From the IMG/VR virus record IMGVR_UViG_3300045988_125011: a stretch of DNA of 64,000 nt; one strand, 5' to 3'. This DNA is from a virus. A model generated the notes under the pieces. That model was not told the origin of the DNA and searched no databases. It was given only the letters and a program-made list of their open reading frames with translations. The translations under genes were made by a program, and so were the position numbers. This document shows, piece by piece, positions 11,480 through 31,400 of the stretch (its first letter is position 1; each line of letters opens with the position of its first letter).

Positions 11480-11480
11480 T

Positions 11481-13007: not shown

Positions 13008-13075
13008 CTGTAACGGATTTTCTCGTAAGAGAGCTTTACGCCAAAGGCTAAAGTAACAAATTGTCGGGAGGATGA
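13008..13075 (+). repeat. Copy 1 of a structured three-hairpin motif: GNRA hairpin tctcGTAAgaga, then cttta-CGCCAAAGGC-taaag, then agtaacaa and a gggagg..cccc hairpin. Lies upstream of the RT gene.
   Basis: Compared by eye with copies at 14558, 14836 and 31352; the stem flanking CGCCAAAGGC changes by compensatory substitutions between copies. Confidence 0.6.
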
Positions 13076-13385
13076 CCCCCGGTGGATGACGCGGTGGAAC
13101 CCAGAAAGCAAACTGGCTGCCACGGGTCGGCAGCATCACGCAATAAAACCAGCCAAATGTCAAGCACTTTTCGCCAAATCTTCGATACAAGGACGAAATG
13201 AACTGACATCAGACTCACGCTTTCAGTCGCAATAATTCCAAAGAAGAAAAAAAAATCTGCTCGCATCTTACACCACGTTTACACCATCTCCCGCATATAA
13301 GCGACTCAGTCTTCAGATTCAGGAATTCTGGGAAGCAGCAGACATATGTAGGTTACAGTTAGTTATTGGACAAGGAGGGGAAGAA

Positions 13386-14522
13386 ATGGTCTATATCACT
13401 GTTAGGCAGTCACCGATTTATCATCAGATGACACTGGAAGAGTACCTGTTTCAAAACTATCAGACACCTCCGGTTGTCAATGCCAATATTGCAAACACAA
13501 GAACATACGAGGTCGAAAATGTCAGTGAACATTTTTCCAGCAAGATTGGCGTTGAAGCTTTAATCGGAAAACTCGTGCGATTTAATAACGATACAGCAGA
13601 GCTTCGTGCAAAGGAACGGAGCGAGTTGTATGAGACTTTTTACATCCCAAAGAAATCTGGTGGTCTTCGTAGAATCGATGCGCCAAAGGCAGAGCTGATG
13701 GACGCCCTGAGAAGACTCAAAACGATTTTCGAGGATGATTTCCATGCACTCTATCATACTGCCGCGTTTGCTTATGTAAAGAAGCGGAGTACAGTCGATG
13801 CGGTTAAGCGTCACCAGAAGAACAGCAGCAAATGGTTCGCAAAGCTTGACCTGCACGACTTTTTTGGCAGCACAACATTGGATTATGCCATCTCAATGTT
13901 CTCGATGGTTTTTCCTTTTAGTGAGATTGTAAAAGAGCCACAGGGCGAGGCAGCATTGCGGACAGCTATGTCGTTAGCGTTCTTAAATGGTGGGCTACCG
14001 CAGGGTACCCCAATTTCACCGCTTATCACAAACGTAATGATGATTCCGGTTGATTTCAAACTGTCGAATACGCTCCGTAATTTTGAAAAACAGAGCTTCA
14101 TTTATACCAGATATGCGGATGACTTCATCATTTCATCCAAGTATGATTTTGATGTTCGTTCTGTTGAAGAGCTGGTAGTAAGTACATTGAACAGCTTTGG
14201 TGCCCCGTTCACAATCAATGCAAGCAAGACTCGGTATGGTTCATCAGCAGGGCGCAACTGGAATCTTGGCGTTATGCTGAATAAGGACAACGAGATTACG
14301 GTCGGTCATAAAAAGAAAAAGCAGTTCCAGTCAATGCTGTACAATTACATCACAGATAAGAACAATGGTGTCGCTTGGGAACGGAATGATGTACAGGTAA
14401 TGTATGGTCTGCATAGCTATTATCGTATGGTCGAAAAAGAGACCATCGACGCAATTGTAGCTTACATCAACAAGAAAATGAATGTGGATGTAATCCGTAT
14501 GATGAAGGACGACCTGCGGTAA
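13386..14522 (+). CDS. reverse transcriptase (retron/DRT/DGR-like single-domain RT, 378 aa)
   Basis: RT motifs FYIPKKSGGLRRI, LDLHDFF, GLPQGTPISPLITNV, YTRYADDFIIS (YADD box), plus retron-type AYVKKRSTVDAVKRH; RBS aaggaggggaagaaATG. Confidence 0.85.
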   Translation: MVYITVRQSPIYHQMTLEEYLFQNYQTPPVVNANIANTRTYEVENVSEHFSSKIGVEALIGKLVRFNNDTAELRAKERSELYETFYIPKKSGGLRRIDAPKAELMDALRRLKTIFEDDFHALYHTAAFAYVKKRSTVDAVKRHQKNSSKWFAKLDLHDFFGSTTLDYAISMFSMVFPFSEIVKEPQGEAALRTAMSLAFLNGGLPQGTPISPLITNVMMIPVDFKLSNTLRNFEKQSFIYTRYADDFIISSKYDFDVRSVEELVVSTLNSFGAPFTINASKTRYGSSAGRNWNLGVMLNKDNEITVGHKKKKQFQSMLYNYITDKNNGVAWERNDVQVMYGLHSYYRMVEKETIDAIVAYINKKMNVDVIRMMKDDLR

Positions 14523-14557
14523 CGTCTATAAATAACCCGCAATCCTGTAATGCATAA

Positions 14558-14632
14558 TTGCGAAAGCAATGCTTATCGCCAAAGGCATAAGTAACAACTT
14601 GATAGGGAGGAAAACCTCCCCAGAGGCGCATT
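14558..14632 (+). repeat. Copy 2 of the three-hairpin motif (ttgcGAAAgcaa, cttat-CGCCAAAGGC-ataag, agtaacaa, gggaggaaaacctcccc), immediately downstream of the RT stop
   Basis: About 55-nt direct repeat of copy 1 with covarying stems. Confidence 0.6.
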
Positions 14633-14835
14633 CACCTGCAGACTCAAGTCATCCTTCGAGGCTGGGAACCACACGGTGAGCAGCCCGAATCACTCGAATC
14701 CATTGTGGCACAATGGATTCAACGAGCCTGACCAAAGGATGTCGCACGCCAGACACTGGGTGCCGGAGCTCCTCCTCACGAGGAGCTACCTCCATGTAGA
14801 TTACAGGGTAATCAAATTATCATTTGCAGTGAATA

Positions 14836-14900
14836 ACATTTCGTAAGGAATGTGCTTCACGCCAAAGGCTGAAGTATCACTTTGCTGGACAGCACAATTC
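14836..14900 (+). repeat. Copy 3 of the hairpin motif (acatttcGTAAggaatgt, cttca-CGCCAAAGGC-tgaag)
   Basis: Same architecture; the stem again differs by compensatory changes. Confidence 0.55.
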
Positions 14901-15125
14901 CCCGCCCGCAGCCTGCTGCGAAGGCGCCTAAGCCAGCTGTACAGCTCATTAAAACTAATCTGGATGTCTCGTCACCTCCATCTGATGAGCGACCGACGAA
15001 CCCATTGTCTCCCAATGATTTCATCATCGCCACTTGGGATTTGAACTCGCTTTCAGCTCATCTAAATCCCGTCGTTACAGGAGATAAACAAAGAGACCAG
15101 AGCAGAATATACATATGGACTGCAG

Positions 15126-15824
15126 ATGAGAAAGGAACTGAGCATGATTTATGTCACTGGAGATACACACGCAAACATTGATATTGCCAAGCTTAATACA
15201 ACAAAGTTCCCACAACAAAAGGAATTGACGAAGAGTGATTTCGTAATCATATGTGGCGATTTCGGACTATGCTGGGACGGTTCGCATCGAGAGATGTGGT
15301 GGCAAGACTGGCTGACAGCGAAAAACTTTACGACACTTTGGATTGATGGCAACCATGAGAACTTTGATATGCTCTACCAGTTCCCGCTGATTGACAAATT
15401 TGGCGGAAAGGTGCGTGAAATCGCTCCTGACATCTATCATCTGGACAGAGGGCAGGTGCTCACGATTGATGGAAAGAAAATCTTCTGCATGGGCGGTGCT
15501 CGCTCTGTTGATAAAGAGTATCGCGTGGAACATATCTCATGGTGGAAAGAGGAAATGCCGTCCAGAGAAGAAATGGAACGAGCGATTGCAGCACTCGAAC
15601 AAAATAATTGGCGAGTTGACTATGTAATTACACATTGTGCGCCAAGGAGTGTTCAGACTCTGCTCGCAAGCTGGTACGAGAACGACCCGATGGTCAGCTT
15701 TTTGGATAGGGTTTGTTCCGACCTCACATTCAAGCGGTGGTTCTTTGGACATTATCATGTGGACAAGCAGGTCAATGAGCAATTTATTGCTCTGTATAAT
15801 AAAGTAATTCCAATGGAGTGGTAA
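15126..15824 (+). CDS. calcineurin-like metallophosphoesterase
   Basis: GDTHANID, CGDFG and GNHE metallophosphatase motifs; alternative start ATG 15144; the 3' end overlaps the first nucleotides of tRNA-Ser. Confidence 0.7.
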   Translation: MRKELSMIYVTGDTHANIDIAKLNTTKFPQQKELTKSDFVIICGDFGLCWDGSHREMWWQDWLTAKNFTTLWIDGNHENFDMLYQFPLIDKFGGKVREIAPDIYHLDRGQVLTIDGKKIFCMGGARSVDKEYRVEHISWWKEEMPSREEMERAIAALEQNNWRVDYVITHCAPRSVQTLLASWYENDPMVSFLDRVCSDLTFKRWFFGHYHVDKQVNEQFIALYNKVIPMEW

Positions 15825-15904
15825 GCCTAACGGTAAGGCAGCGGTTTGCTAAACCGTGAGTAATCCGAAAGGATGTGCAGGTTCAAGTCCTGTCCACTCC
15901 GCCA
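15815..15904 (+). tRNA. tRNA-Ser (anticodon GCT), long variable arm
   Basis: Acceptor ggagtgg/ccactcc; anticodon loop ttgctaa; CCA encoded. Confidence 0.8.
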
Positions 15905-15980
15905 AGGGGTGTGGTGCAATGGCTAACATAGCGGTCTCCAAAACCGTCAGATGGTGGTTCGAATCCATTCACCCCTGCCA
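15905..15980 (+). tRNA. tRNA-Trp (anticodon CCA)
   Basis: Acceptor aggggtg/cacccct; loop ctccaaa; CCA encoded; directly abuts tRNA-Ser. Confidence 0.8.
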
Positions 15981-16166
15981 GTTGTTGGGTAGCTCCCAAC
16001 TGATGTGAGCGATTATCGGCTTACCTCACAAAGAATGAAAATGCTTGCTGAAAACTGCGCTTGTCTTGATGCGTCAAGACCGGTTTGACCTGACGGAATA
16101 GGGGCTACGACTTTTCGGAGCGTAGTTGCCGGTAGCGTGTGACAATCTAAGCGAGAAGCCGACCAT

Positions 16167-16243
16167 GCGGCGTTGGTGTTCAACGGTTAGCACTCCGGTC
16201 TTCCAAACCGGTGGTGCCAGTTCGAGTCTGGTACGCCGCTCCA
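16167..16243 (+). tRNA. tRNA-Gly (anticodon TCC)
   Basis: Acceptor gcggcgt/acgccgc; anticodon stem ccggt/accgg; loop cttccaa; CCA encoded. Confidence 0.85.
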
Positions 16244-16360
16244 AGTAAGAAACCATTAAATTATGCGTTAAAGGAAATGCCTTTACGACACGTCAGAGCC
16301 TGCTCTGGAAGTCGGTTACAGGTTGGTTTGGCGGGACGCCGCTGCATGAGCCTGCAGATA

Positions 16361-16435
16361 CAGGGGTATGGTGAAGCGGTAACACAGCGGACTTTGACTC
16401 CGTTATTCGTAGGTTCAAATCCTACTGCCCCTGCC
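16361..16435 (+). tRNA. tRNA-Gln (anticodon TTG)
   Basis: Loop ctttgac; T-arm gtagg-ttcaaat-cctac; 75 nt; CCA encoded. Confidence 0.85.
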
Positions 16436-16595
16436 AAAATCATCTTCGGCATTAGAGCTTGTTTTCTATCCCTGCAATCCCTTGTGCCACGATGATTTAT
16501 CCATGATTCTCCTTTCACGCTATCAAAACTGCCATCATAGTGAGTTTGTATTGGTGGTGTTAATGACATCGCCATAGTTTCAGGATGGCATCTAT

Positions 16596-16671
16596 GCTGG
16601 AATAGCTCAACTGGTAGAGTAACGCTTTCGTACAGCGTGGGTTCTCGGTTCGACTCCGAGTTCCAGCTCCA
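16596..16671 (+). tRNA. tRNA-Thr (anticodon CGT)
   Basis: Acceptor gctggaa/ttccagc; anticodon stem acgct/agcgt; loop ttcgtac; CCA encoded. Confidence 0.85.
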
Positions 16672-16784
16672 TCTGCTCTGTTGGTCATGCTTACGTTTGT
16701 ACGGTTAGTTCATCACTCAACTGTTATCTCTGTAAGAGACACAGCCGGGTGCACACGGAGTCCTACGGGCGCAGGGCGTATCTA

Positions 16785-16858
16785 TGCTGATGTAGCTCAG
16801 TTGGTAGAGCAGCACCGGAAGTGCGAGCCGCTGGTTCAAGTCCAGTCATCAGCAGCCT
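16785..16858 (+). ncRNA. Degenerate tRNA-like element. Acceptor stem gctgatg/catcagc, D-arm and T-arm are canonical, but only 18 nt lie between D- and T-arms (4-bp stem gcac/gtgc, 5-nt loop), so it has no anticodon loop and ends GCC rather than CCA.
   Basis: Hand fold gives a total of 69 nt; cannot make a standard cloverleaf. Confidence 0.4.
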
Positions 16859-16898
16859 TTTAGCTAAAAGCTGACACCTCGGAAAGACGAGGGTGCAC

Positions 16899-16974
16899 GC
16901 TGGTGTAGCGTAATTGGTAGCGCAAGTGATTTGTACTCACTGGGTTGCGGGTTCGAGCCCTGTCACCAGCTCCA
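16899..16974 (+). tRNA. tRNA-Thr (anticodon TGT)
   Basis: Acceptor gctggtg/caccagc; anticodon stem agtga/tcact; loop tttgtac; CCA encoded; two G-U pairs in the T-stem. Confidence 0.8.
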
Positions 16975-17008
16975 ACGGACTGACATATCCGTTTTCCTTT
17001 CTGCCCCG

Positions 17009-17092
17009 GCACGCACTACTAAGCATTGATGGCGATGCTTATGGTGAGGATGGTTCGAACCCATCAGTAGTGCGTGTGCGTTCGGAAACAAA
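17009..17092 (+). ncRNA. tRNA-like or mini-helix structure: an 11-bp closing stem (cacgcactact/agtagtgcgtg) enclosing a 6-bp hairpin (aagcat..atgctt) and a canonical T-arm (gatgg-ttcgaac-ccatc), with no D-arm
   Basis: Structure read by hand in the spacer between tRNA-Thr and tRNA-Pro. Confidence 0.3.
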
Positions 17093-17102
17093 ACCATTAT
17101 AT

Positions 17103-17178
17103 CTGGGTGTAGCACAGGTGGTAGTGCGCTTGCTTTGGGAGCAAGATGTCGGGGGTTCGAGTCCTCTCGCCCAGACCA
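17103..17178 (+). tRNA. tRNA-Pro (anticodon TGG)
   Basis: Anticodon stem cttgc/gcaag; loop tttggga; CCA encoded. Confidence 0.8.
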
Positions 17179-17199
17179 ATTTCATAGAGGAGGGTTGCC

Positions 17200-17682
17200 A
17201 TGTATCTGTATCACGGTACTCCGGCAGATTTCGATGTACCAACCCTGAACAAGTGTAAGCCGCACCGAGATTTCGGATGCGGCTTTTATCTTGCCACAAA
17301 TTATTTCGATGCCTTGCCGATGGCAGTCAAAAACTCTCGGGTGGGATATGTCCAAACATATCTGCTCACAGACTTGGATGGACTTTCCGTTCTGGAGTTT
17401 GATGAAAGGTCTGAGGATTGGCTTCGGTTCGTGGTTTCTTCAAGGCTCGGCACCGCTCCAAATGTCGATTTGGTAATCGGATATATGGCTGGCGGAGGAA
17501 GTAATTTGAAAAGTAAATTTACAAAGCTGAGAAATAGCAATGTGTCGATTGACGTGGCGGCTACAGCAATGCGAAAAGAGTTAACCAGTACGCAGCTTGG
17601 CGTACAATATGCGTTCCTGACAGAAAAAGCATTGTCCAAGCTCGTTAGGGTCTCAACTGAAATAGTGGAAATGGAGGATTAA
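17200..17682 (+). CDS. hypothetical protein with an H-G-T...Y...E arrangement reminiscent of H-Y-E (PARP/DarT-like) ADP-ribosyltransferases
   Basis: MYLYHGTPADFD resembles the PARP HGS motif; downstream GCGFYLA (Y) and LEFDERSED (E); this is inference only. Confidence 0.3.
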   Translation: MYLYHGTPADFDVPTLNKCKPHRDFGCGFYLATNYFDALPMAVKNSRVGYVQTYLLTDLDGLSVLEFDERSEDWLRFVVSSRLGTAPNVDLVIGYMAGGGSNLKSKFTKLRNSNVSIDVAATAMRKELTSTQLGVQYAFLTEKALSKLVRVSTEIVEMED

Positions 17683-17685
17683 AAC

Positions 17686-18240
17686 ATGACAAGGAATGAA
17701 TTTATTGACAATATCACTGAGTGGTGTGAACTGAAAGACTTTTGCAACGACTTTGACTGCGATATCTGTGAGGACATCTATGACGATGATGATTACGATG
17801 ACAGCGTCGAAGAAGATATCCGCGATGCTATCGCCGACTACGGCTGGAGGGACATCCGAGACTTCCTTGGCAACCTCCCCAGCGGGTACTATTACTACCG
17901 TCGTAACAGCGCCTTTGATTATGATGGTCTCGATGACGATGACTTCGAAGACTACAAAGAGGATGTCCTCGAATGGGGCGATGACTACGGCGCATGGGAC
18001 GACGAGGAAGATGAAGATGAAGAGTACGCCGATGCAGATGACGACTTCCTCGATTCTCTGGAAGAGGAACCCGACGAAGATGAAACCATTGAGGAAGAGG
18101 ATTTCTCCATCGATGACCTCATCGGTATGTGCAGTGTAGTGTTTGTGGCTATCCAGAATGATGAAGTGGAAAAGCAGCAAGAAGAAGACGAGGCGTTCGC
18201 ACAGCTCCTGAGCATGGATGGGAGACGTATTGCAACCTAA
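17686..18240 (+). CDS. hyper-acidic protein (very high Asp/Glu content), possible DNA-mimic or anti-restriction-like protein
   Basis: Composition read directly: runs such as DDDDYDD, DEEDEDEEYADADDDF, EEEPDEDETIEEED. Confidence 0.6.
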   Translation: MTRNEFIDNITEWCELKDFCNDFDCDICEDIYDDDDYDDSVEEDIRDAIADYGWRDIRDFLGNLPSGYYYYRRNSAFDYDGLDDDDFEDYKEDVLEWGDDYGAWDDEEDEDEEYADADDDFLDSLEEEPDEDETIEEEDFSIDDLIGMCSVVFVAIQNDEVEKQQEEDEAFAQLLSMDGRRIAT

Positions 18241-18676
18241 AACATAAGCGGATAACCGCTATGATACAGACCGCTTTGAAGATTGACTACATACATATGT
18301 CTCAGCAAAACGTGTAGTATCTTCTCGCTTAAAGCAGAAGAAAAGATTTGAGTTCTTCATTTTTAGCCTCGCATTTCCGAGGTTATAATTTTTATTCAGC
18401 GAATAAAAATAATAACCCGGAAATTGCTTGCTAAAAATGTCACTTTGTGCACATGGGGCTTCTGTAACAATCACGCCCCATGCGGAAAGCGGTCGGCAAA
18501 TTGAGAACGGAGGCGAGTTCAATGACAGACAAGAATAGGCGAAAACTTCAAGCGAAGAGAGCACGCAATTTCTGGACTTGTGCTCGTCCCGTTACTCAAA
18601 TTGTTCCAAACAAACGAGCTTATAATCGTAAGCGCGAGAAGGATATTCGTTACAAGTATAAGGAGGGCGAGCAAGA

Positions 18677-19198
18677 ATGAGATATCAGAGCACCCCAGAA
18701 AAAGAATTTGATGGCGACATTATCATTACAGACCCGTGTTACATCATTCGCAAGGAAAACGGGATAACTAAAAACGACTGGCACTATTGTGAGTACGGTG
18801 AATATATGGAGCGACTTGGGATTAAAAATTATCTGACCCATGACACCATCTATGGAGACTGGGGATGCACAGTTTTTGATTCTGACACAAAGAAACCGTT
18901 GGGACGATTCTGTGCAGATGCCGGTCTTGTATCTGTATTTCTGCTGGATGAAGTTCTTGCCTATAACCCAAACTTCAATTATCACGTAGAGAGACCGTGG
19001 ACAACTACGATAATTCCAGACTTCAAAGGGACTATTCAAATCGAAGTTGTAAGAGAAACCGGTACCTTCCAAGAGGACTCTGAGTATTGGAAAGCGGGAG
19101 AAACTTGGGAAGATTACCTCGTCCATGTTGTTGGGCATGGTGTAAACAAGAAAACAGGTAAAGCGATAAACTTTATTAGCAAACAAACGTCGCTGTAA
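18677..19198 (+). CDS. hypothetical protein
   Basis: 173-aa ORF with RBS aaggagggcgagcaagaATG. Confidence 0.5.
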   Translation: MRYQSTPEKEFDGDIIITDPCYIIRKENGITKNDWHYCEYGEYMERLGIKNYLTHDTIYGDWGCTVFDSDTKKPLGRFCADAGLVSVFLLDEVLAYNPNFNYHVERPWTTTIIPDFKGTIQIEVVRETGTFQEDSEYWKAGETWEDYLVHVVGHGVNKKTGKAINFISKQTSL

Positions 19199-19213
19199 GA
19201 TGGAGGGTGAAGA

Positions 19214-19774
19214 ATGAAGGTTCTTGTTGTCGTTGATATGCAGAACGACTTTATTGATGGTACACTTGGCACACCGGAGGCGCAGGCTATTGTGCCGAAG
19301 GTCGTCAAGAAAATCAAAGAGTTTGATGGGGAAGTTTTGTGGACACAAGACACCCATTCTGATGATTACCTCGAAACGCAAGAAGGAAGACTGTTGCCGG
19401 TAGAACACTGTATATCTGCAAGTAATGGCTGGCAGATTCATAGCTCAGTCAAAGCAGCAATTCAGAGCAAGCATCCAGTGGATGACCAGTTGAATGGTTT
19501 CGAGAAGAAAACGTTTGGTTCATTAGCACTTGCTGGTCGCCTATATCCAGAAGTTGCGTTTGGTGATGGCATAGAAGAAATTGTCCTTGTCGGTCTTTGT
19601 ACCGATATCTGTGTTATCTCAAACGCCTTGCTGCTCAAGTCGTTCATGCCGGAAGTTAAGATTACGGTCGATGCTTCCTGCTGCGCTGGCGTGACACCAG
19701 AGAGTCACAAGACTGCACTGTCGGCAATGAAAATGTGCCAGATTAACATCGAGAACGAGGGGGTCACGGCATGA
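19214..19774 (+). CDS. isochorismatase-family cysteine hydrolase (nicotinamidase PncA-like)
   Basis: VVVDMQNDF N-terminal motif and VGLCTDICV catalytic Cys context. Confidence 0.7.
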   Translation: MKVLVVVDMQNDFIDGTLGTPEAQAIVPKVVKKIKEFDGEVLWTQDTHSDDYLETQEGRLLPVEHCISASNGWQIHSSVKAAIQSKHPVDDQLNGFEKKTFGSLALAGRLYPEVAFGDGIEEIVLVGLCTDICVISNALLLKSFMPEVKITVDASCCAGVTPESHKTALSAMKMCQINIENEGVTA

Positions 19775-20559
19775 TTCTTGTCAACGACAAGCAGGTCGAG
19801 TTTACAAAGTTCCCTGATGGTACAACCTCTTTTAGGTATAATCCGTTTGGCTCAATGACTCGCATCTTCAATATCACATGGAAGTATGACGGCGATGAGG
19901 AGTGCATCCTTCTATGGTATCTGGTAAATCATATCCGCGACCATGACCGGAACGTTCGCCTCCGCTTGCTGCTCCCATACATTCCAAATGCCAGAATGGA
20001 TAGAGTAAAAAATGCGGACGAAGTGTTTACGCTAAAATGGTTTGCGCAGTTTATCAATATGCTGAATTTTGACGACGTGTTAGTCGATGACCCTCACTCG
20101 AATGTATCAGCAGCATTACTTGACAGAGTCAAGGTATATGACGCGCAGCCGCACATCCAGAAAGCTCTGGACAAGTTGGATGACAAAAATGTGTTGCTGT
20201 GCTATCCTGATGAGGGAGCAGCAAAACGATATTCATCGCAAGCTGGTAGAGAGTATGTGTTCTGCATCAAGCACAGAGACTGGCGCACCGGGAAAATTGA
20301 ACGGCTGGAACTGACGAGCCCAGAAAAGGTTACCGATAGAAATGTGCTGATTGTCGATGATATTTGTTCTCGCGGAGGCACATTCACTTTTACAGCTAAG
20401 GCACTAAAAGAGGCTGGCGCGAATGAAGTGTATTTGTATGTGACCCATTGTGAAAACACAATTCACAGTGGAACGGTTCTCACAGACGGCTTAATCAGTC
20501 GTGTGTTTACCACAGATAGTATCTATCGCGGAAATAGCGAGATGATTTCGCTCATTTAA
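19771..20559 (+). CDS. ribose-phosphate pyrophosphokinase (Prs)-like phosphoribosyltransferase-fold protein; candidate ADP-ribose pyrophosphokinase of a NAD reconstitution pathway
   Basis: PRPP-binding loop NVLIVDDICSRGGT and Prs-like C-terminal EVYLYVTHCENTIHSG; 262 aa. Confidence 0.55.
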   Translation: MILVNDKQVEFTKFPDGTTSFRYNPFGSMTRIFNITWKYDGDEECILLWYLVNHIRDHDRNVRLRLLLPYIPNARMDRVKNADEVFTLKWFAQFINMLNFDDVLVDDPHSNVSAALLDRVKVYDAQPHIQKALDKLDDKNVLLCYPDEGAAKRYSSQAGREYVFCIKHRDWRTGKIERLELTSPEKVTDRNVLIVDDICSRGGTFTFTAKALKEAGANEVYLYVTHCENTIHSGTVLTDGLISRVFTTDSIYRGNSEMISLI

Positions 20560-20578
20560 TCTTAAAGGAGGCGGGCAA

Positions 20579-21784
20579 ATGCTTGAGTTACAGGGTAAGT
20601 TTGGCACTGCAAAGGTGTTTACCGACGTGGTCGATAATGAGTCTATCTCTCAGGTTATCAATCTTTTGAATCAACCGTACATCGAGGGAAGCAAAGTCCG
20701 TATGATGCCAGACATTCATGCTGGGGCTGGTTGTACAATCGGAACCACGATGACCATCAAGGATAAGATTTGCCCGAACCTTGTCGGCGTTGACATTGGA
20801 TGCGGCATGGAAACTATCCGTATCAAAGAAACGCATATTGAACCGCAGAAGCTGGACAAAGTTATTCGTGCAGGAGTTCCGTCCGGTTTCGAGATTCGCA
20901 CAGAAGCTCATAGATATGCAAGTAGCATCGACCTGTCGGAACTGTGCTGTGCAAAGATGGTCAATGTAGACCGCGCATATAAAAGCATCGGTACGCTTGG
21001 TGGAGGGAATCATTTCATCGAAGCCAACAAAGATGATGATGGACACATCTATATTGTGGTGCATTCCGGTAGTAGACACCTTGGTCTGGAGATTGCTAAC
21101 TTCTATCAGGAAGCTGCGTTCAAGGCGTTAACCTCGTATTCCAAGGAAGAAATCGAGGAGGTCGTCAACGAGTTAAAAGCGGCTGGAAGACAAAGAGAAA
21201 TCCAAGCTGTTCTTAAAGGCATGAAGGCGAAGAAGCCGGGAGTTCCAAAGCAGCTTGCATACGTTGAGGGAGAATTGTTTGAGCAGTATATCCATGACAT
21301 GAAAATTGCTCAACGTTTTGCTGAGCTTAACCGCCAAGCAATGATGGACACCATTGTTAAGGGTATGGGCTTCCATGTCGAAGAGCAGTTTACGACTATT
21401 CACAACTACATCGATGTAGAGAATATGATTCTTCGCAAGGGCTCGGTCTCTGCACAGGCTGGTGAGCGGCTGCTGATTCCTATCAACATGAGAGACGGTA
21501 GTTTGCTGTGTACCGGCAAAGGAAATGAAGACTGGAACTTCTCTGCCCCGCATGGAGCTGGGCGTTTGATGAGCCGCAGTGCAGCGAAAGAGACATTCAC
21601 AGTTTCTGAGTTCAAGAAGCAGATGGAAGGCATTTACACCACATCTGTTGGAAGAAGCACACTCGATGAATGCCCGATGGCATACAAAGGTATGGATGAT
21701 ATCGTAAACAATGTCGAACCGACAGTGACCATTGATGCCATCATCAAGCCGATTTATAACTTTAAGGCGGGTGAAGAGGAATGA
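20579..21784 (+). CDS. rtcB: RtcB-family RNA ligase (3'-phosphate/5'-OH)
   Basis: MPDIHAGAGCTIGTT, VGVDIGCGM, GGGNHFIE and SAPHGAGR motifs align with E. coli RtcB; 401 aa. Confidence 0.9.
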   Translation: MLELQGKFGTAKVFTDVVDNESISQVINLLNQPYIEGSKVRMMPDIHAGAGCTIGTTMTIKDKICPNLVGVDIGCGMETIRIKETHIEPQKLDKVIRAGVPSGFEIRTEAHRYASSIDLSELCCAKMVNVDRAYKSIGTLGGGNHFIEANKDDDGHIYIVVHSGSRHLGLEIANFYQEAAFKALTSYSKEEIEEVVNELKAAGRQREIQAVLKGMKAKKPGVPKQLAYVEGELFEQYIHDMKIAQRFAELNRQAMMDTIVKGMGFHVEEQFTTIHNYIDVENMILRKGSVSAQAGERLLIPINMRDGSLLCTGKGNEDWNFSAPHGAGRLMSRSAAKETFTVSEFKKQMEGIYTTSVGRSTLDECPMAYKGMDDIVNNVEPTVTIDAIIKPIYNFKAGEEE

Positions 21785-22005
21785 TGATAGTCCTTTTGGT
21801 ACTCCTGTACCTCTGCATTGGTGCGATTGTAACATTCGCACTTTGCCGCTTGTACACTATCGTAGAACCATATGACAAATATAACGGCTTCGAATGCGAG
21901 TATATCGTGGTAGGTGTTTTCTGGATTGTTGCAGCACCGTTTGCGTTTGCTGTGTTTTTTGCGAAATATGGTGAAAAACTAAAGAAAAGAGGAAAAGCTG
22001 AATGA
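21781..22005 (+). CDS. small membrane protein
   Basis: 74 aa with two hydrophobic segments. Confidence 0.4.
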   Translation: MMIVLLVLLYLCIGAIVTFALCRLYTIVEPYDKYNGFECEYIVVGVFWIVAAPFAFAVFFAKYGEKLKKRGKAE

Positions 22006-23414
22006 TTACATACAATCCGCTCCTGTGTCTGGACTTCTATAAGACTTGTCACGCTGAACAGTATCCGAAGGGATTGACCAAGATGGTCTCATACTACACG
22101 CCGCGCATGAGTCGCCTTAGTGATACCGATAAGGTTACACTGTTTGGGCTTCAGGCATTCATTCAGGAATATCTCATTGAGGCATTCAACGACCACTTCT
22201 TTAATGTCCCGTTTGATAGTGTACTCAAGGAGTACACCAGAGTTCTTGGGGCAACAATCAGAACGAAAGGCGTTGGAGAGAAACGGCTTCGTGAATTGCA
22301 TGACCTCGGCTATCTTCCGTTACAGATTCGTGCTGTTCCCGAAGGAACGAGAACCAATATCAAAGTTCCGCAAATTGAAATCTCAAATACACACCCTAAC
22401 TTCGTATGGCTGGTCAACACCATCGAGACGATGCTCTCTTGCACAATGTGGCATACGCAAGTCTCCGCTGAGGTTGGGTACAGATATCGTAAAATCGTCA
22501 ATGAGTATGCAGAACGCACTTGCGATGACAATGTGGTTCGTGCGAGACTCCTTGGCGATTTTTCTATGCGCGGGCAAGAGAGCGTTGAAAGTGCAACAAA
22601 GAGCGCAGCGGCTTTCTGCCTGAGCTTCTTGAATACAGCGACAGTGCCTGCGATTTTGTGGCTTGAGCATAATTACAACTGTGATTGTAGCAAGGAACCT
22701 GTCGCATATGGTGCGCTCTCAACAGAACACAGCGTAATGTGTTCCAACTTTGCTGTTGACGGTGATGAGGTGACACAGATTCGACGACTTCTTTGTGAGG
22801 TGTATCCGCATCAAAGTTTCTCAATGGTTAGCGACAGCTATGACTATTGGAATCTTGTTGAAAAAGTCCTCCCTCAGCTCAAAGATGACATCCTAAATCA
22901 CGATGGCTTCATCTCAATTCGCGGCGACAGCGGTGACCCTGTTAGTGTAATCACTGAGACCGTATATCGTCTGTGGGACATCTTTGGCGACAAGCGTACT
23001 GAAATCAATGCCGAGTTGGATACCTATTTGCGTGAGAAGTTCGACCAGTATGGCATCATTATTGACACTGTAAACTTTACGGATATCTCAGTTGACGATG
23101 AAACGGCTGCGGCTATCCAGAAGAAAGTCACTGCTCAGCAGGAGCTTGAGTTGGCGAATATTGAAAAGCAAACCGCCAAGGTTCAGGCTGAGAAAGATAG
23201 AGAGGTCGCACAGATTAACGCAGAGAAAGCAGTTATTGAAGCAGAAGCAAAAGCAGAGACATTGCGTATTGCTGCGGAGGCAGAAGCCGACGCAAACCGC
23301 AAGATTGCGGCTTCACTTACCAATGAGTTGATTGAAAAAATCAAGTATGAGCAGTGGAACGGAGAGCTGCCTACGGTGACTGGCTCAACGCCCATCATTA
23401 GTCTCGAACCGTGA
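22002..23414 (+). CDS. NAMPT/NadV-family nicotinamide phosphoribosyltransferase homologue, truncated core with a C-terminal Ala/Glu-rich coiled-coil extension (candidate Namat-type enzyme)
   Basis: LLCLDFYKTCH, LQIRAVPEG, GDFSMRG, MVSDSYD and IRGDSGDP align with NAMPT; the last ~100 aa are a low-complexity helical segment. Confidence 0.7.
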   Translation: MITYNPLLCLDFYKTCHAEQYPKGLTKMVSYYTPRMSRLSDTDKVTLFGLQAFIQEYLIEAFNDHFFNVPFDSVLKEYTRVLGATIRTKGVGEKRLRELHDLGYLPLQIRAVPEGTRTNIKVPQIEISNTHPNFVWLVNTIETMLSCTMWHTQVSAEVGYRYRKIVNEYAERTCDDNVVRARLLGDFSMRGQESVESATKSAAAFCLSFLNTATVPAILWLEHNYNCDCSKEPVAYGALSTEHSVMCSNFAVDGDEVTQIRRLLCEVYPHQSFSMVSDSYDYWNLVEKVLPQLKDDILNHDGFISIRGDSGDPVSVITETVYRLWDIFGDKRTEINAELDTYLREKFDQYGIIIDTVNFTDISVDDETAAAIQKKVTAQQELELANIEKQTAKVQAEKDREVAQINAEKAVIEAEAKAETLRIAAEAEADANRKIAASLTNELIEKIKYEQWNGELPTVTGSTPIISLEP

Positions 23415-23626
23415 TGGAAAAATGGTGGGACAATGCAAAAGATTGGGTTAAAGTTCTAATTTGCATTGCTGTCTCCATCGTCTCGATTGCGCTAATCATT
23501 CTTACGATGATTATGCCAATTGTTTGGAGCATCAAGATGCATAACCCAGCCTTTCTGCTTTTGTGGTGCATCCCCGCTGGCATCTTTGTCGGCGTATGGG
23601 CTTACCAAGAGTTTTTTGATTTCTAA
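23411..23626 (+). CDS. small membrane protein
   Basis: 71 aa, hydrophobic. Confidence 0.4.
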   Translation: MMEKWWDNAKDWVKVLICIAVSIVSIALIILTMIMPIVWSIKMHNPAFLLLWCIPAGIFVGVWAYQEFFDF

Positions 23627-23642
23627 ATAAGGAGGAGATTAT

Positions 23643-24134
23643 TTGACAGCCGTATATCTGGTCATTTTATTTTTCGCTAAGGTGCTGGACAACACGCTTG
23701 GTACAGCCAAGACAATCTTGGTACAGAGAAATCGTTGTGTCCTTGCCGGAGTCGCTCTCGGCTTGTCAAATTTTATCTACCTTAGCATCACAAAAGATAT
23801 TGTAACGAGTGACAGCAGCCTCGCCCTTGCAACTGTTTCCATTGCAAGCGGTGTTGGCTGCTGTTTAGCTGTCGCATTAAGCAACAGGTTTTCAAAAGAC
23901 AAGACCTATGTGAACGTCATTATGTCGGATAATTTGGAGGCGATGCAAGAGTTTCGAGATTTTCTGGCAACACAGCACATCACGAATGTCGCTGCAGACA
24001 GCTATACCTTGGACTGGAGCAAAAAGTCCATTACCATCACTGCCTATGCAGAGACAAAAGCACAGAGCAAACTGATTGATGATTACATCGCAAATAGCTC
24101 ATTGAAGTTCAAAAGAGTTATCAGCAGAAGCTAA
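23643..24134 (+). CDS. membrane protein (TTG start)
   Basis: 163 aa with N-terminal transmembrane segments; RBS aaggaggagattaTTG. Confidence 0.45.
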   Translation: MTAVYLVILFFAKVLDNTLGTAKTILVQRNRCVLAGVALGLSNFIYLSITKDIVTSDSSLALATVSIASGVGCCLAVALSNRFSKDKTYVNVIMSDNLEAMQEFRDFLATQHITNVAADSYTLDWSKKSITITAYAETKAQSKLIDDYIANSSLKFKRVISRS

Positions 24135-24170
24135 AAACGATGGTTTTAATAATTCAAAGGAGGGTGTCCT

Positions 24171-25256
24171 ATGCGACATTTGGCAACAATCCGTGAGATT
24201 GCATCTCTTCGCCCGATTGCAGGAGCTGACCGCATTGAAGTTGCGCAGGTCGATGGTTGGGAATGTGTGGTTCAGAAGGGCGAGTTCCATACAGGAGAGC
24301 ATATCGTTTACATTGAGGTCGATTCTATCGTCCCAGAGCGCCCAGAGTTCGAGTTCTTGAGAGACAGAAAGTTCAGAGTCCGCACCATTAAGCTGCGTGG
24401 TCAGGTCAGTCAGGGTTTGGTTCTCCCACTGTCAATCCTTCCGAATGGTACTCCTGCAATTCTTGGCGCCGATGTGACAGACGCTTTGGGCATTAAGAAG
24501 TATGACCCAGAAGCGCAGCAAGAAGCACAGCTCTTGACAAAGCAACCGCAAAAACCGCAGAGCGCAATCGCTCGCTTCCTGATGCGATTCAAGTGGTATC
24601 GCAAACTGTTTATGAAGCCCAAGCGCAAGGGAGGATTCCCCGACTGGATTGCCAAGACGGATGAGACCCGCATTCAAAACCTTACGACGCTCTTTGAGAT
24701 GGAGCGTAACAAGGGAACGAAGTTCTCTGTCACAGAGAAAGTTGATGGGCAGTCAGCGACGTATTACCTGCGTAAAGTTTCCAAACGCAAGTATGAGTTT
24801 GGCGTTTGCAGCCGTAATATCTATCTCGGAACACCGGATAACAGTTCTTACTGGACGATTGCTAAGAAGTACAATATCGAAAACGTACTGCGACAGCTTA
24901 TCGGTGATTATGAAACCATCGTTTTACAAGGTGAGATTTGCGGCAACCAGATTCAGGGCAACAAGTACCACATTAGTGGTTACGACTTGTTTGCCTTCAA
25001 CCTGATTTATCCAGACCACAAGTGTGGCACGGCAGAAATCAAGAAACTGCTTGAGCCGTATGGAATTAAGACTGTTCCGATTATTGAGGAGGACAAAACC
25101 CTGCCCGAAACTATCGCTGAGCTGGTCGAGTATTCCAAGGGAAAATCAGTGGTTCGTAAGGAACAAAAACGAGAAGGTGTAGTTATGCGCAATGTCCAGA
25201 GCAACATCAGCTTCAAGGTCATCAATCCTGACTTCCTTCTCGCAGAAAAGGACTGA
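24171..25256 (+). CDS. ATP-dependent RNA ligase (Rnl-type nucleotidyltransferase with an N-terminal OB/tRNA-binding-like domain)
   Basis: Lysine-adenylation motif TEKVDGQSATYY (KxDG); 361 aa. Confidence 0.6.
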   Translation: MRHLATIREIASLRPIAGADRIEVAQVDGWECVVQKGEFHTGEHIVYIEVDSIVPERPEFEFLRDRKFRVRTIKLRGQVSQGLVLPLSILPNGTPAILGADVTDALGIKKYDPEAQQEAQLLTKQPQKPQSAIARFLMRFKWYRKLFMKPKRKGGFPDWIAKTDETRIQNLTTLFEMERNKGTKFSVTEKVDGQSATYYLRKVSKRKYEFGVCSRNIYLGTPDNSSYWTIAKKYNIENVLRQLIGDYETIVLQGEICGNQIQGNKYHISGYDLFAFNLIYPDHKCGTAEIKKLLEPYGIKTVPIIEEDKTLPETIAELVEYSKGKSVVRKEQKREGVVMRNVQSNISFKVINPDFLLAEKD

Positions 25257-25261
25257 TTTTT

Positions 25262-26178: not shown

Positions 26179-26188
26179 GGTGGTGGAC

Positions 26189-26862: not shown

Positions 26863-26885
26863 GACTTTTCATCAGGAGGTCAATC

Positions 26886-27820: not shown

Positions 27821-27826
27821 GCCGCT

Positions 27827-28042: not shown

Positions 28043-28054
28043 TGGAGGTATAAC

Positions 28055-28468: not shown

Positions 28469-28476
28469 TGTGAACT

Positions 28477-28973: not shown

Positions 28974-29310
28974 CTATACCTGCACAGACCCAGATTGTGC
29001 CCAGTATATGGCAAAGGTGACGGATACACGATACAGCTACATCGAGTACAGAGAGTGGTTTGGGAATTATATTGTATGTCACGCTGTTGTTGACCTGCAG
29101 GACTATACTCTGGACGAAATTTGCACATACTGCTCCTCATACTATGATTCTCTGGAACAGATGGTTGCCGACTACGGTTTTCGTGGAGCGTTGCAGATTA
29201 TGGCAGAATGTATTTTTGAACAGCTTGGTTTCGATGATATGGAGTTTAATGCAGAACAAAAAAGTGAAGGCGCGGCAATTAAATTCATACACGAATGGAT
29301 GAAAGGCTGA
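28954..29310 (+). CDS. hypothetical protein
   Basis: 118-aa ORF. Confidence 0.4.
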   Translation: MKKLKLNYTCTDPDCAQYMAKVTDTRYSYIEYREWFGNYIVCHAVVDLQDYTLDEICTYCSSYYDSLEQMVADYGFRGALQIMAECIFEQLGFDDMEFNAEQKSEGAAIKFIHEWMKG

Positions 29311-29316
29311 TTTGAT

Positions 29317-30087: not shown

Positions 30088-30099
30088 AAGGTTAATTCG

Positions 30100-30306
30100 A
30101 TGACTAATTTCGAGGAAATTAAGAGGAAAATAGCCAATATGAATATCGATGAGCTGATAGAGTTTTGCGGCGGTGATACTTGCGAGAATGTGCTTTGCTC
30201 TTTTGTGAGCGATGGCGATTGTTGCGGGAACAATTGCAAGGTCAGCTATGATTGTGGAGGCTGTATTAAAAAGTTCTTGCAAAGAGAGACGAGGGTAGTC
30301 AGATGA
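30100..30306 (+). CDS. small Cys-rich protein
   Basis: 68 aa with several CxxC. Confidence 0.35.
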   Translation: MTNFEEIKRKIANMNIDELIEFCGGDTCENVLCSFVSDGDCCGNNCKVSYDCGGCIKKFLQRETRVVR

Positions 30307-30515
30307 AATGTCCATATTGTGAATCTGGGACAAATGATTTTGTTCCAATGAACCAAGCCGTTGAATACAGCGGCATTGAGATGGCTGTAAACAGGCAGGG
30401 AATGTTGAGGGTGAGAGTGCTTGACGACGATGGCAGTTTCACGACTCAAGATATCATTGAGATACGCAACTGCCCACTGTGTGGGAAACGATTTATGAAG
30501 GGTCGATGTGTATGA
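30303..30515 (+). CDS. small zinc-ribbon protein
   Basis: CPYCESG...CPLCGK. Confidence 0.4.
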   Translation: MKCPYCESGTNDFVPMNQAVEYSGIEMAVNRQGMLRVRVLDDDGSFTTQDIIEIRNCPLCGKRFMKGRCV

Positions 30516-30790
30516 GCGGCATCGTCCATTGCCCAAGATGTGGGCACCATATAAACATCCCTTCTGATGGAACTGTCGGGTACTGCCCGATATGCGATAA
30601 GAAGGTTACTGACATGGAGAAAAGAACAATTTGGGTAAAGCCATCCTGCTTTACTCCAGAGTTTGAGATGGTTATTCCTGTCCCGACAGACCGAGATGAT
30701 GAGGAGTACATCGATGAACTGCTGGACGGAATTCTGAATAACGAGGTTCGCTACAATATCGAGTGGGATTTTGTAGACGGGCTAAGCTGA
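30479..30790 (+). CDS. zinc-ribbon protein
   Basis: CPRCGHH...CPICDKK. Confidence 0.4.
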   Translation: MWETIYEGSMCMSGIVHCPRCGHHINIPSDGTVGYCPICDKKVTDMEKRTIWVKPSCFTPEFEMVIPVPTDRDDEEYIDELLDGILNNEVRYNIEWDFVDGLS

Positions 30791-30833
30791 CAATGGGAAT
30801 ATATGTGGTGGTGGAAGACAACCGATTGGAGGT

Positions 30834-31049
30834 GTGGTTGTGGCTGAGCGCAACGAACACAAGAGCGCGAAATACCAAGATGGTGACATTTATTTGAATC
30901 CATGCTTCGGCGACCTGTGGGTTGTGGATGGCGCATCGTTCATTAAAATCAATAACGGATATGCAATTGAGTTGGACGAGCCAGAAGGATTCATTAAAGT
31001 TGGACATATCGATGGAGTAATTAACAAGAGAAGTCAACCGGCAAAGTGA
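30834..31049 (+). CDS. hypothetical small protein
   Basis: 71-aa ORF. Confidence 0.3.
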   Translation: MVVAERNEHKSAKYQDGDIYLNPCFGDLWVVDGASFIKINNGYAIELDEPEGFIKVGHIDGVINKRSQPAK

Positions 31050-31309
31050 GGGTTCAAATGACAGTCAAGGACATTCTTCCGAGCCATCCAGTTGAAATCA
31101 TGGTTAGAACCAACTATCCAGAAAGCCTTTTGCCGTATCTAAGCAGTGAGAGAATTGAACAGGGATTGCTTGTTGGTTATTGCTCTTGGGACGGTGAGAA
31201 TCTCATCCCTGCGGATGGTGATTACTATTCTGTGGATGAAGTTATTTCAAAATATGAGTATGAAGAGGACGGCAGTCTAACATACTGGACTGTCTCTGAA
31301 TGGGTGTAG
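31046..31309 (+). CDS. hypothetical small protein
   Basis: 87-aa ORF. Confidence 0.35.
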   Translation: MRVQMTVKDILPSHPVEIMVRTNYPESLLPYLSSERIEQGLLVGYCSWDGENLIPADGDYYSVDEVISKYEYEEDGSLTYWTVSEWV

Positions 31310-31351
31310 ACAACGACCGCTTTGTAGATTTGCTGTTATACATATTTCCTT

Positions 31352-31400
31352 CAGCAGCTTTTCGCCAAAGGCAAAAGTAAGAATTCGGCACTATGCTCGT
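31352..31400 (+). repeat. Copy 4 of the hairpin motif (ctttt-CGCCAAAGGC-aaaag then gtaagaa), followed after ~33 nt by a terminator
   Basis: Same covarying stem architecture as copies 1-3. Confidence 0.5.

What the first reader, a model, noticed from the sequence alone, without database searches (positions are those of the whole stretch)
13008..31400. Four copies of a covarying two- or three-hairpin motif built around CGCCAAAGGC at the heads of accessory cassettes
Copies sit at 13011-13075, 14558-14632, 14836-14900 and 31352-31400. Each has a GNRA-tetraloop hairpin (tctcGTAAgaga, ttgcGAAAgcaa, catttcGTAAggaatg) followed by a hairpin whose stem differs between copies by compensatory substitutions (cttta/taaag, cttat/ataag, cttca/tgaag, ctttt/aaaag) around an invariant CGCCAAAGGC core. 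Then come agtaa(c/g)a(a) and, in copies 1 and 2, a GGGAGG-N4-CCYCCC hairpin. Compensatory changes argue for selection on RNA (or ssDNA) structure, not just a protein-binding sequence. The copies precede the RT, the metallophosphoesterase and tRNA array, and the HNH endonuclease, and copy 4 is followed 33 nt later by a terminator. Candidate roles are an antitermination or processing element, a 5' stabiliser, or a cassette-boundary recombination site. I cannot match it to any RNA family I know.
Basis: seen in the sequence. Interest (0 to 1): 0.7.

Follow-up and report, generated by a model that had tools for sequence, protein, structure and literature searches.

The report
Phage retron-like RNAs, five per genome
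The repeated hairpin motif is the front end of five roughly 220–360-base structured RNAs that look like the template RNAs of a retron reverse transcriptase encoded by this phage; one enzyme serving several such RNAs, inside a virus, has not been described in the literature I could search.

Summary
A covariance model finds the four copies at E = 4e-16 to 9e-7, all on the + strand, and a weak fifth hit proved to be a diverged copy at 18269-18494. Across homologues 98.6% of stem cells pair and 10 of 14 pairs show compensatory changes.

Each copy starts a 224-355 nt unit closed by a covarying 9-11 bp long-range helix (a1/a2). An invariant G follows a1 directly. Then come hairpins P1 and P2, a hypervariable interior, and a conserved yAG block before a2.

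That is the layout of a retron msr-msd RNA. Unit 1 sits in the canonical position, ending 26 nt upstream of a retron-clade reverse transcriptase (13386-14522). The unit-RT-unit arrangement holds down to 46% RT identity: 100 of 100 model hits lie on the RT strand at stereotyped positions. The P2 apex matches within genomes but differs between them.

The best reading is one phage RT serving five retron-type ncRNAs, embedded between genes of a tRNA-repair and NAD-salvage island. The "terminator" after copy 4 lies inside its unit and is not conserved. Synthesis of msDNA is inferred, not shown. I rate it a new variant of a known kind.

The parts
13006..13360 (+). It ends 26 nt before the RT start codon.
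13386..14522 (+). Retron-clade reverse transcriptase, 378 aa, YADD active site. Region X reads AVKRH and region Y reads NLG, with H and G invariant in the family.
14542..14809 (+). Unit 2 (copy 2): a1 14542-14551 ATCCTGTAAT, G 14552, P1 14557-14570 (ATTGC-GAAA-GCAAT), P2 14571-14592, interior with a 12-bp hairpin tipped by CATTGTGGCACAATG (about 14695-14720), pre-a2 ATGTAG, a2 14800-14809. It starts 20 nt after the RT stop codon.
14820..15129 (+). Unit 3 (copy 3): a1 14820-14830 TCATTTGCAGT, G 14831, P1 14837-14852 (CATTTC-GTAA-GGAATG), P2 14854-14875, island ATTGTCTCCCAAT at 15004, a2 15119-15129. a2 abuts the ribosome-binding site of the metallophosphoesterase gene.
18269..18494 (+).
31315..31541 (+). 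Unit 4 (copy 4): a1 31315-31323 GACCGCTTT, G 31324, linker tagatt, P1 31331-31335/31352-31356 (TGCTG/CAGCA), P2 31357-31378, long covarying stem (about 31398-31409 with 31469-31480) carrying the GCCCGC hairpin 31410-31424 as a side branch, pre-a2 ATGCGG, a2 31533-31541.
9070..12158 (+). Upstream operon kept next to unit 1 and the RT across the RT family: unknown 497-aa protein (9070-10563), weak JAB/Rpn11-like protein (10502-11479), ThiF/E1-like protein (11481-12158). Whether it is functionally linked to the RT is not established.

Best explanation
The motif is the msr-like 5' module of retron-type non-coding RNAs. The window carries five such RNA units and one retron-clade reverse transcriptase. 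Each unit is transcribed on the + strand as part of the phage's rightward polycistronic transcripts, between the stop codon of one gene and the ribosome-binding site of the next. The two ends of a unit pair (a1/a2, 9-11 bp). This places the invariant G that follows a1 next to the conserved yAG that precedes a2. Hairpins P1 and P2 follow the G. P2 has a bulged base and a 3-bp/triloop apex; it is shared by all units of a genome and is the likely docking site for the RT. By analogy with retrons, the RT would then use the 2'-OH of that G as primer and copy the variable interior from the a2-proximal end, giving one branched RNA-DNA (msDNA) species per unit. Shown here: the structure, its covariation, strand specificity, linkage to the RT, and within-genome concordance of P2. 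Inferred: RT binding, priming at the G, and cDNA synthesis. The downstream role is unknown. My leading guess is that the msDNAs, or the act of reverse transcription, serve the surrounding counter-defence island, either as decoys or sensors, or by releasing translation of the gene just after a2, as reported for Type VI retron hybrid RNAs (bioRxiv 10.1101/2025.10.22.683967).
For: (1) RT clade: the best PADLOC models are retron RTs (RT_II-A, 5.5e-46). The best NCBIfam model is retron St85 family, 2e-51. The 12 best solved-structure matches are retron RTs (Ec83, Ec78, Ec67, Kva2, Ec86 and three unnamed or St85-family entries). (2) a1/a2: 96 of 106 distinct units have a complement of at least 9 nt, against 2 of 106 and 3 of 106 in controls, with at least 15 different helix sequences. 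In RT loci of 46-70% identity, 61 of 84 hits have a closure of at least 8 bp, with dozens of unrelated sequences. Unconstrained minimum-energy folds recover a1/a2, P1 and P2 in four units. (3) A G directly follows a1 in all five window units and in every representative examined. (4) P1 and P2 covary: 98.6% paired, 10 of 14 pairs with double changes. The closing G-U of P2 is kept in 49 of 51 sequences and would be an A-C mismatch on the other strand. (5) Position: unit 1 ends 26 nt before the RT start codon. All 100 model hits in 54 divergent RT loci are on the RT strand at fixed offsets. (6) The P2 apex is identical within genomes in 33% of pairs against 3.5% between genomes, 0 of 5000 permutations; P1 and a1/a2 stay unit-specific. 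(7) The c4-type interior forms a stem of about 15 bp with many compensatory changes. (8) These features match the published definition of retron ncRNAs: hybridising terminal repeats, branching G, 1-3 msr hairpins, and region Y directing the RT to its msr (PMC7736814).
Against: No experimental data: msDNA, the 2'-5' branch and RT binding are all inferred. The RT scores below the NCBIfam retron cut-off (175 against 235 bits). Its NAxxH and VTG signatures read AVKRH and NLG, although the two residues Mestre et al. call most conserved, H and G, are invariant in the family alignment. The interiors of c1-c3-type units are not one long stable hairpin: centred pairs 0.15 against 0.20 in shuffles, and only slightly more stable than shuffles. 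Unit 1 as a whole is weakly structured (z = -1.3). Four of the five units are not in the canonical upstream position, and two are 4 and 17 kb from the RT. No known retron effector is adjacent. The outer P2 pairs are also concordant within genomes (0.51 against 0.15), so local gene conversion could explain part of the concordance. All related loci come from one family of phages with conserved gene order, so linkage is partly confounded with common descent.
Confidence: 0.6

Rival explanations
1. The units are RT-associated RNAs that work by a non-retron mechanism. For example, they may be templates for unbranched cDNA primed in another way, as in the defence-associated RTs (DRT2-, DRT9-like), or scaffolds that regulate the RT without being copied.
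For: The RT is divergent, falls below the retron family cut-off and has altered NAxxH and VTG signatures. The interiors are long, hypervariable and not a classical msd hairpin. Closed ends also occur in the DRT2 template RNA (my own knowledge of Tang et al. and Wilkinson et al. 2024; not checked here).
Against: All the best sequence matches are retron RTs, whereas Drt2 and Drt3 models score far lower (6e-11 and 1e-7). There is no consistent stop-free reading frame across units, as a rolling-circle 'neo' gene would need. The invariant G directly after a1 is the retron hallmark.
Confidence: 0.15
2. The units are RT-independent cis-acting RNA modules between cistrons. They may be processing or stability elements excised through the a1/a2 helix, or translational gates for the downstream gene, read by a host RNase or another phage protein.
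For: Every unit fills the gap between a stop codon and the next ribosome-binding site, with a2 1-16 nt from that site. Units 4 and 5 are far from the RT. No promoter-like site above chance lies upstream of any unit, so they are co-transcribed with their neighbours.
Against: The unit-RT-unit arrangement is kept down to 46% RT identity. A 9-11 bp helix is short for RNase III. This reading does not explain the invariant G or the genome-specific P2 apex.
Confidence: 0.13
3. One reading: a put-like antitermination or attenuation element acting on a downstream terminator.
For: P1 and P2 are two directly abutting hairpins, as in HK022 put RNA (my own knowledge). Units 4 and 5 both have a terminator-like hairpin with a T-run about 25-30 nt after P2.
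Against: Units 1-3 have no such terminator. The unit 4 hairpin is deleted in L070 and its T-run is displaced in L006 and L028. It lies inside the a1/a2-closed unit. This reading does not explain a1/a2, the G, or the RT linkage.
Confidence: 0.06
4. The structure forms in single-stranded DNA, as a recombination or nicking site at cassette boundaries (attC-like or HUH-nuclease hairpin), or as an N4-type hairpin promoter.
For: G-T pairs are tolerated in DNA hairpins. All copies have one orientation and lie at gene boundaries. Unit 2 has CAACTTGATA, which resembles the phiX174 origin nick site (my own knowledge). The only phage DNA similarity was a tRNA match to N4-like phages.
Against: The CAACTTGATA block is not conserved in other units. 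No HUH, integron-integrase or giant virion RNA polymerase gene appears in the window; the largest ORF is the DNA polymerase. A 200-320 nt long-range helix is unexpected for such sites.
Confidence: 0.04

Closest known systems
Bacterial retrons (msr-msd ncRNA plus retron RT; Mestre et al. 2020 classification, PMC7736814)
   Same: RT of the same clade. ncRNA directly upstream on the same strand. Terminal inverted repeats that hybridise. A conserved G at the 3' edge of a1. One to three 5' hairpins. A template region that varies between systems.
   Different: Several ncRNAs (three around the RT and five in this window) for one RT. Units are embedded between cistrons of a large phage rather than at the head of a defence operon. 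Interiors are long and mostly not a single msd hairpin. The RT signatures are altered (AVKRH, NLG). No known retron effector is adjacent.
Type VI retron hybrid RNA (Retron-Vpa2; bioRxiv 10.1101/2025.10.22.683967)
   Same: A retron template RNA physically joined to a downstream coding sequence, whose translation depends on reverse transcription. Here a2 lies 1-16 nt from the next gene's ribosome-binding site.
   Different: That system is a bacterial defence with a toxic small protein and an HTH partner. Here the downstream genes are the RT itself, a metallophosphoesterase, a 52-aa basic protein and a 70-aa ORF ahead of an HNH endonuclease. No sequestration of the ribosome-binding site was shown here.
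Engineered multi-template retron arrays ('multitrons'; my own knowledge, not checked here)
   Same: One RT served by several msr-msd units that share the RT-recognition part and differ in the template.
   Different: Those are synthetic; this would be a natural counterpart.
HK022 put antiterminator RNA (my own knowledge)
   Same: Two directly stacked hairpins of about 60-70 nt in a phage transcript.
   Different: There is no sequence or Rfam match. put has no long-range closing helix or RT link, and the terminator association is not conserved here.

Membership tests
Retron | RT belongs to the retron clade by sequence | tested here: met
   PADLOC best hits RT_II-A, I-A, III-A and XIII (5.5e-46 to 3e-38). 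The 12 best PDB matches are retron RTs. NCBIfam retron_St85 at 2e-51, but 175 bits is below the 235-bit cut-off, so this is a divergent branch.
Retron | Region X NAxxH motif (H most conserved) and region Y VTG triplet (G most conserved) | tested here: inconclusive
   In the alignment to Ec83 the motifs read AVKRH and NLG. H143 and G295 are invariant in seven RTs of 60-100% identity. N, A, V and T are not retained. Criteria from PMC7736814.
Retron | ncRNA gene contiguous with and upstream of the RT, on the same strand | tested here: met
   Unit 1 spans 13006-13360 and the RT start codon is at 13386. An upstream hit at 210-400 nt is seen in most of 54 divergent loci, all on the RT strand.
Retron | Terminal inverted repeats a1/a2 that hybridise | tested here: met
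   96 of 106 units have a complement of at least 9 nt, against 2-3 of 106 in controls, with many compensated variants. Recovered by unconstrained folding.
Retron | Conserved branching G at the 3' end of a1 | tested here: met
   G is present in all five window units and in all representatives. Only its presence and position are shown.
Retron | msr with one to three hairpins | tested here: met
   P1 and P2, with 98.6% of cells paired and 10 of 14 pairs showing double changes.
Retron | msd forms a long stable stem-loop | tested here: inconclusive
   Met for the c4-type (stem of about 15 bp with compensatory changes) and for window unit 2 (12-bp hairpin). Not general: centred pairs 0.15 against 0.20 in shuffles over 170 interiors.
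Retron | Production of msDNA joined to the G by a 2'-5' bond | not testable with these tools
   Needs expression, gel or sequencing assays and a debranching test.
Retron | Associated effector (tripartite system) | tested here: inconclusive
   No known retron effector is adjacent. An E1-like, JAB-like and unknown-protein operon is kept upstream in 73 of 80 loci, but this may simply reflect conserved phage gene order.
Any Rfam family, including self-cleaving ribozymes and RAGATH motifs | Match to the covariance model | tested here: not met
   No hit at gathering score, and none up to E = 10 with permissive filters on 12900-15200.
Diversity-generating retroelement | Template and variable repeat pair near the RT | tested here: not met
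   Short-word BLAST of the three intergenic regions against the window finds only the motif copies.
DRT2-type template RNA | Stop-free reading frame through the template unit | tested here: not met
   Only one frame of one unit is stop-free. The Drt2 model scores 6e-11 on a partial match.
Intrinsic terminator or put-like antitermination pair | Conserved terminator downstream of the element | tested here: not met
   Terminator-like sites occur only in units 4 and 5. The unit 4 site is not conserved in homologues and lies inside the unit.
N4-type DNA hairpin promoter | Giant virion RNA polymerase gene and short hairpins ahead of early genes | tested here: not met
   No such ORF in the 64 kb. The rest of the genome was not seen.

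The most novel reading that the evidence does not exclude
A widespread family of large phages of gut anaerobes carries its own retron-derived system. One RT reads three to five intercistronic ncRNAs that share a genome-specific docking hairpin but have fast-evolving templates. This yields a panel of msDNAs that the phage uses offensively: as decoys or sponges for host defences that sense or use ssDNA or retron msDNA, or as reverse-transcription-triggered switches for its counter-defence genes (tRNA repair, NAD salvage, homing endonuclease). That would turn a bacterial anti-phage device into a phage weapon.
Probability: 0.3. Interest if true: 0.85.

Novelty: new variant of a known kind. Interest (0 to 1): 0.7.

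Why it matters
Retrons are studied as bacterial anti-phage systems with one RT, one ncRNA and one effector, and as genome-editing tools. A natural system in which one RT serves several ncRNAs would show how template choice is encoded: a shared P2 apex with unit-specific P1 and ends. It would give ready-made orthogonal RT/ncRNA pairs, because the apex differs between genomes, and a natural precedent for multiplexed retron editing. Its placement in a phage, among tRNA-repair and NAD-salvage genes and without a recognisable toxin, raises a testable question: do phages use reverse-transcribed DNA for counter-defence or gene control? The RT family is abundant (5,465 proteins at E ≤ 1e-10 among the 8,000 candidates scored), so the biology could be common in gut viromes.

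Tried and rejected
- **Known RNA families:** Rfam at gathering and permissive thresholds gave nothing for the motif.
- **DGR:** no template/variable repeat.
- **N4-like hairpin promoter** (suggested by tRNA hits to N4-like phages): no virion RNA polymerase in the window, and the long-range helix and RT linkage fit poorly.
- **HUH nick site:** the CAACTTGATA resemblance is confined to unit 2 types.
- **DRT2 'neo' template:** no stop-free frame.
- **Second RT paralogue for units 4 and 5:** none in the window.
- **Template homology to the phage's own genes** (a natural recombineering donor): none within the window.
- **Single long msd hairpin for all units:** not supported by folding against shuffles. 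The tight mid-point position of the interior island probably reflects redundancy among related units.
- **Metallophosphoesterase as effector:** linked only sporadically.
- **Conserved terminator after copy 4:** not conserved.
- **Further units:** a P2-independent scan for a1-G...ATGnnG-a2 found no units beyond the five.
- **Literature:** searches for phage retrons with several ncRNAs, or RTs linked to E1/JAB, found nothing relevant. The Faecalibacterium phage 'retron-type RT' annotations refer to DGRs.
- **MAFFT alignments** misplace the P1 5' arm, so P1 statistics come from the model-based alignment, which leans towards the structure.


Full report

Yes.

I built a covariance model of the 5' domain from eight homologues in other contigs. 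With filters off it finds exactly four significant matches in the 64 kb, all on the + strand:

| Window position | E-value |
|---|---|
| 14543-14605 | 3.8e-16 |
| 13006-13067 | 2.4e-12 |
| 14822-14888 | 1.3e-09 |
| 31331-31391 | 9.3e-07 |

The next hit is at E = 0.13. No Rfam family matches, even at E = 10.

**2. Homologues and covariation**

An exact-pattern scan found the motif in 79 loci from about 45 viral contigs of 40-130 kb. Contigs often hold two or three copies with the same spacings as here. It also occurs in a few MAG contigs assigned to Oscillospiraceae, Clostridiales and Eubacteriales.

- The two variable positions of the second hairpin (P2) take at least 11 combinations, and all of them pair. 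Several are U-G wobbles that pair only on the + strand.
- On a model-based alignment of 150 matches (51 distinct), 98.6% of cells pair. Slid partners give 28-45% and column shuffles give 77.7%.
- Ten of 14 pairs show double changes, and 0 of 500 shuffles reach the observed covariation score.
- P1 has more than 15 different helix sequences, with loops of 3-18 nt. The GNRA loops of copies 1-3 are therefore incidental.
- The 'invariant' CGCCAAAGGC is a bulge, a 3-bp helix and a triloop. All of it changes, with compensation, in more distant members.

**3.

The conserved block upstream of P1 (CTGTAAC, CTGTAAT, TTGCAGT) has an exact reverse complement 207-319 nt downstream, and the pairs covary:

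| a1 | a2 |
|---|---|
| ACTGTAAC | GTTACAGT |
| AATTGTAAC | GTTACAATT |
| GGTTGTAAC | GTTACAACC |
| TCCTGTAAT | ATTACAGGA |
| CATTTGCAAT | ATTGCAAATG |
| CATTTGCAGT | ACTGCAGATG |

- Of 106 distinct units, 96 have a complement of at least 9 nt. Controls give 2 of 106 (an upstream 11-mer) and 3 of 106 (shuffled a1).
- A G follows a1 in every case. The block before a2 is conserved: ATGTAG, ATATGG or ATGCGG, and more generally it ends in AG.
- Copy 4 also has such a closure: GACCGCTTT-G at 31315-31324 with AAAGCGGTT at 31533-31541.
- The weak fifth model hit is a complete unit at 18269-18494. It has the same a1/a2 and linker as copy 4, and its P2 inner helix has changed compensatorily, GCC/GGC to GCT/AGC.
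- Unconstrained folding recovers a1/a2, P1 and P2. The z-scores are -1.3 (unit 1), -7.1 (unit 2), -3.4 (unit 3) and -4.4 (unit 4).
- A scan that ignores P2 finds no further units.

**4. The neighbouring enzyme**

ORF 13386-14522 is a reverse transcriptase.

- Its best PADLOC models are retron RTs.
- Its best NCBIfam model is the retron St85 family, E = 2e-51, though below that model's cut-off.
- Its 12 best solved-structure matches are retron RTs.
- The retron signatures read AVKRH (for NAxxH) and NLG (for VTG). The residues Mestre et al. call most conserved, H and G, are invariant in the family.
- There is no second RT in the window and no DGR repeat pair.

**5. Linkage of units and RT**

Unit 1 ends 26 nt before the RT start codon, which is the canonical retron position. 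Unit 2 starts 20 nt after the RT stop codon, and unit 3 follows 10 nt after unit 2.

I fetched RT loci down to 46% identity. In these, all 100 model hits lie on the RT strand at stereotyped offsets: 210-400 nt upstream of the start codon, 10-90 nt after the stop codon, and further downstream. Sixty-one of 84 hits have an a1-G...a2 closure of at least 8 bp, with dozens of unrelated helix sequences.

The P2 apex is identical in 33% of within-genome pairs against 3.5% between genomes, 0 of 5000 permutations. Examples are 3x ATT-GTA-AAT, 3x GCT-GTC-AGC and 3x GCG-TTT-CGC. P1 and a1/a2 stay unit-specific. This fits one genome-specific reader of P2, most simply the RT, whose region Y directs retron RTs to their msr. 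Local gene conversion cannot be excluded, because the outer P2 pairs are also concordant within genomes (0.51 against 0.15).

**6. The interior**

Between related phages the interior is hypervariable in sequence and length. The exceptions are a small island (yTG-N4-6-CAr, often CATTG...CAATG) and the pre-a2 block. The island is present in 77% of interiors against 24% of shuffles.

In c4-type units the interior forms a stem of about 15 bp with many compensatory changes.

A general single long hairpin is not supported. No consistent stop-free frame exists.

**7. Context**

The window is a large phage. It encodes a DNA polymerase, DnaB helicase, primase, NrdD, CCA-adding enzyme, RNA ligase and serine recombinase.

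The units lie in an accessory island with two tRNA arrays, RtcB, a nicotinamidase-like gene, Prs-like and NAMPT-like genes, a metallophosphoesterase and an HNH endonuclease. Each unit fills the gap between a stop codon and the next ribosome-binding site. Promoter-like sites are at chance level.

Across the RT family the conserved neighbours are upstream: an unknown protein, a weak JAB-like protein and a ThiF/E1-like protein. The metallophosphoesterase is linked only sporadically.

**8. Interpretation**

The anatomy matches the published definition of a retron msr-msd RNA on five of six structural points, and the enzyme is of the retron clade. I conclude, with confidence about 0.6, that the motif is the RT-docking and priming module of retron-type ncRNAs, and that one phage RT serves five of them.

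Reverse transcription, branching at the G and any downstream role are inferred. The rivals are a non-retron RT mechanism, RT-independent intercistronic RNA modules, antitermination and single-stranded DNA sites; each is scored in its own section with evidence and refutation tests.

**9. Novelty**

I found no description of a retron-type RT with several ncRNAs, or of such a system in a phage accessory island. The library lacks most subscription-journal papers, so this is not proof of absence.

I rate it a new variant of a known kind, with interest 0.7.

Noticed in passing
window 201-272, 448-578, 2860-3016: Three Rfam RAGATH motifs (RAGATH-16, -4, -36; 96-151 bits, well above gathering scores) in a gene-poor stretch at the left end of the window. 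These are candidate structured RNAs first found near genes associated with self-cleaving ribozymes. Their function is unknown, and no relation to the retron-like units was examined.
   Followed up: no
window 1-55 and 58-112: A perfect 55-nt tandem direct repeat (CCCCGCCGCCACAGGG...) at the very start of the window. It could be a genome end, an attachment or packaging feature, or part of another RNA.
   Followed up: no
window 9070-12158: An operon of an unknown 497-aa protein, a weak JAB/Rpn11-like protein and a ThiF/E1-like protein (PADLOC E1-E2, 4e-17) is kept immediately upstream of unit 1 and the RT in 73 of 80 related loci, down to 46% RT identity. It may be a ubiquitin-like conjugation module functionally tied to the RT, or just conserved phage gene order.
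   Followed up: partly
window 13681-13690: A fifth exact CGCCAAAGGC lies inside the RT gene (codons for D-A-P-K-A of RT motif 1). It has no flanking stem and no model hit. About 0.1 such 10-mers are expected by chance in 64 kb, so it is probably coincidence, but it occurs in the gene of the enzyme proposed to read that sequence.
   Followed up: partly
window 18364-18385 and 31410-31424: Both c4-type units (5 and 4) carry a terminator-like hairpin with a T-run about 25-30 nt after P2. It is not conserved in unit 4 homologues, but the parallel placement in two units could mean that some transcripts end there, giving msr-only RNAs.
   Followed up: partly
window 14702-14714, 15004-15016, and homologues: A small conserved island, yTG-N4-6-CAr (often a CATTG...CAATG hairpin), sits in otherwise hypervariable interiors: 77% of 170 interiors against 24% of shuffles. 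It may be a stop signal for reverse transcription or a recognition element in the cDNA.
   Followed up: partly
window 15815-25256 and 36678-40255: A dense set of RNA-repair and counter-defence-type genes: two tRNA arrays (14 tRNAs), RtcB ligase, RNA ligase, CCA-adding enzyme and another nucleotidyltransferase, plus nicotinamidase-like, Prs-like and NAMPT-like genes that resemble phage NAD-reconstitution pathways.
   Followed up: partly
window 17686-18240: A 184-aa protein extremely rich in Asp and Glu, with no family match, directly upstream of unit 5. Its composition is reminiscent of DNA-mimic anti-defence proteins.
   Followed up: no
window 16786-16854: Rfam calls a tRNA here (54.8 bits) that ARAGORN did not list, so the downstream array has eight rather than seven tRNA genes.
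   Followed up: no
window 12190-12996: A Hoc-like/DUF6273 gene lies between the ThiF-like gene and unit 1 in this phage and its close relatives, but is absent from most divergent relatives, where unit 1 follows ThiF directly. This looks like an insertion at the unit boundary.
   Followed up: partly
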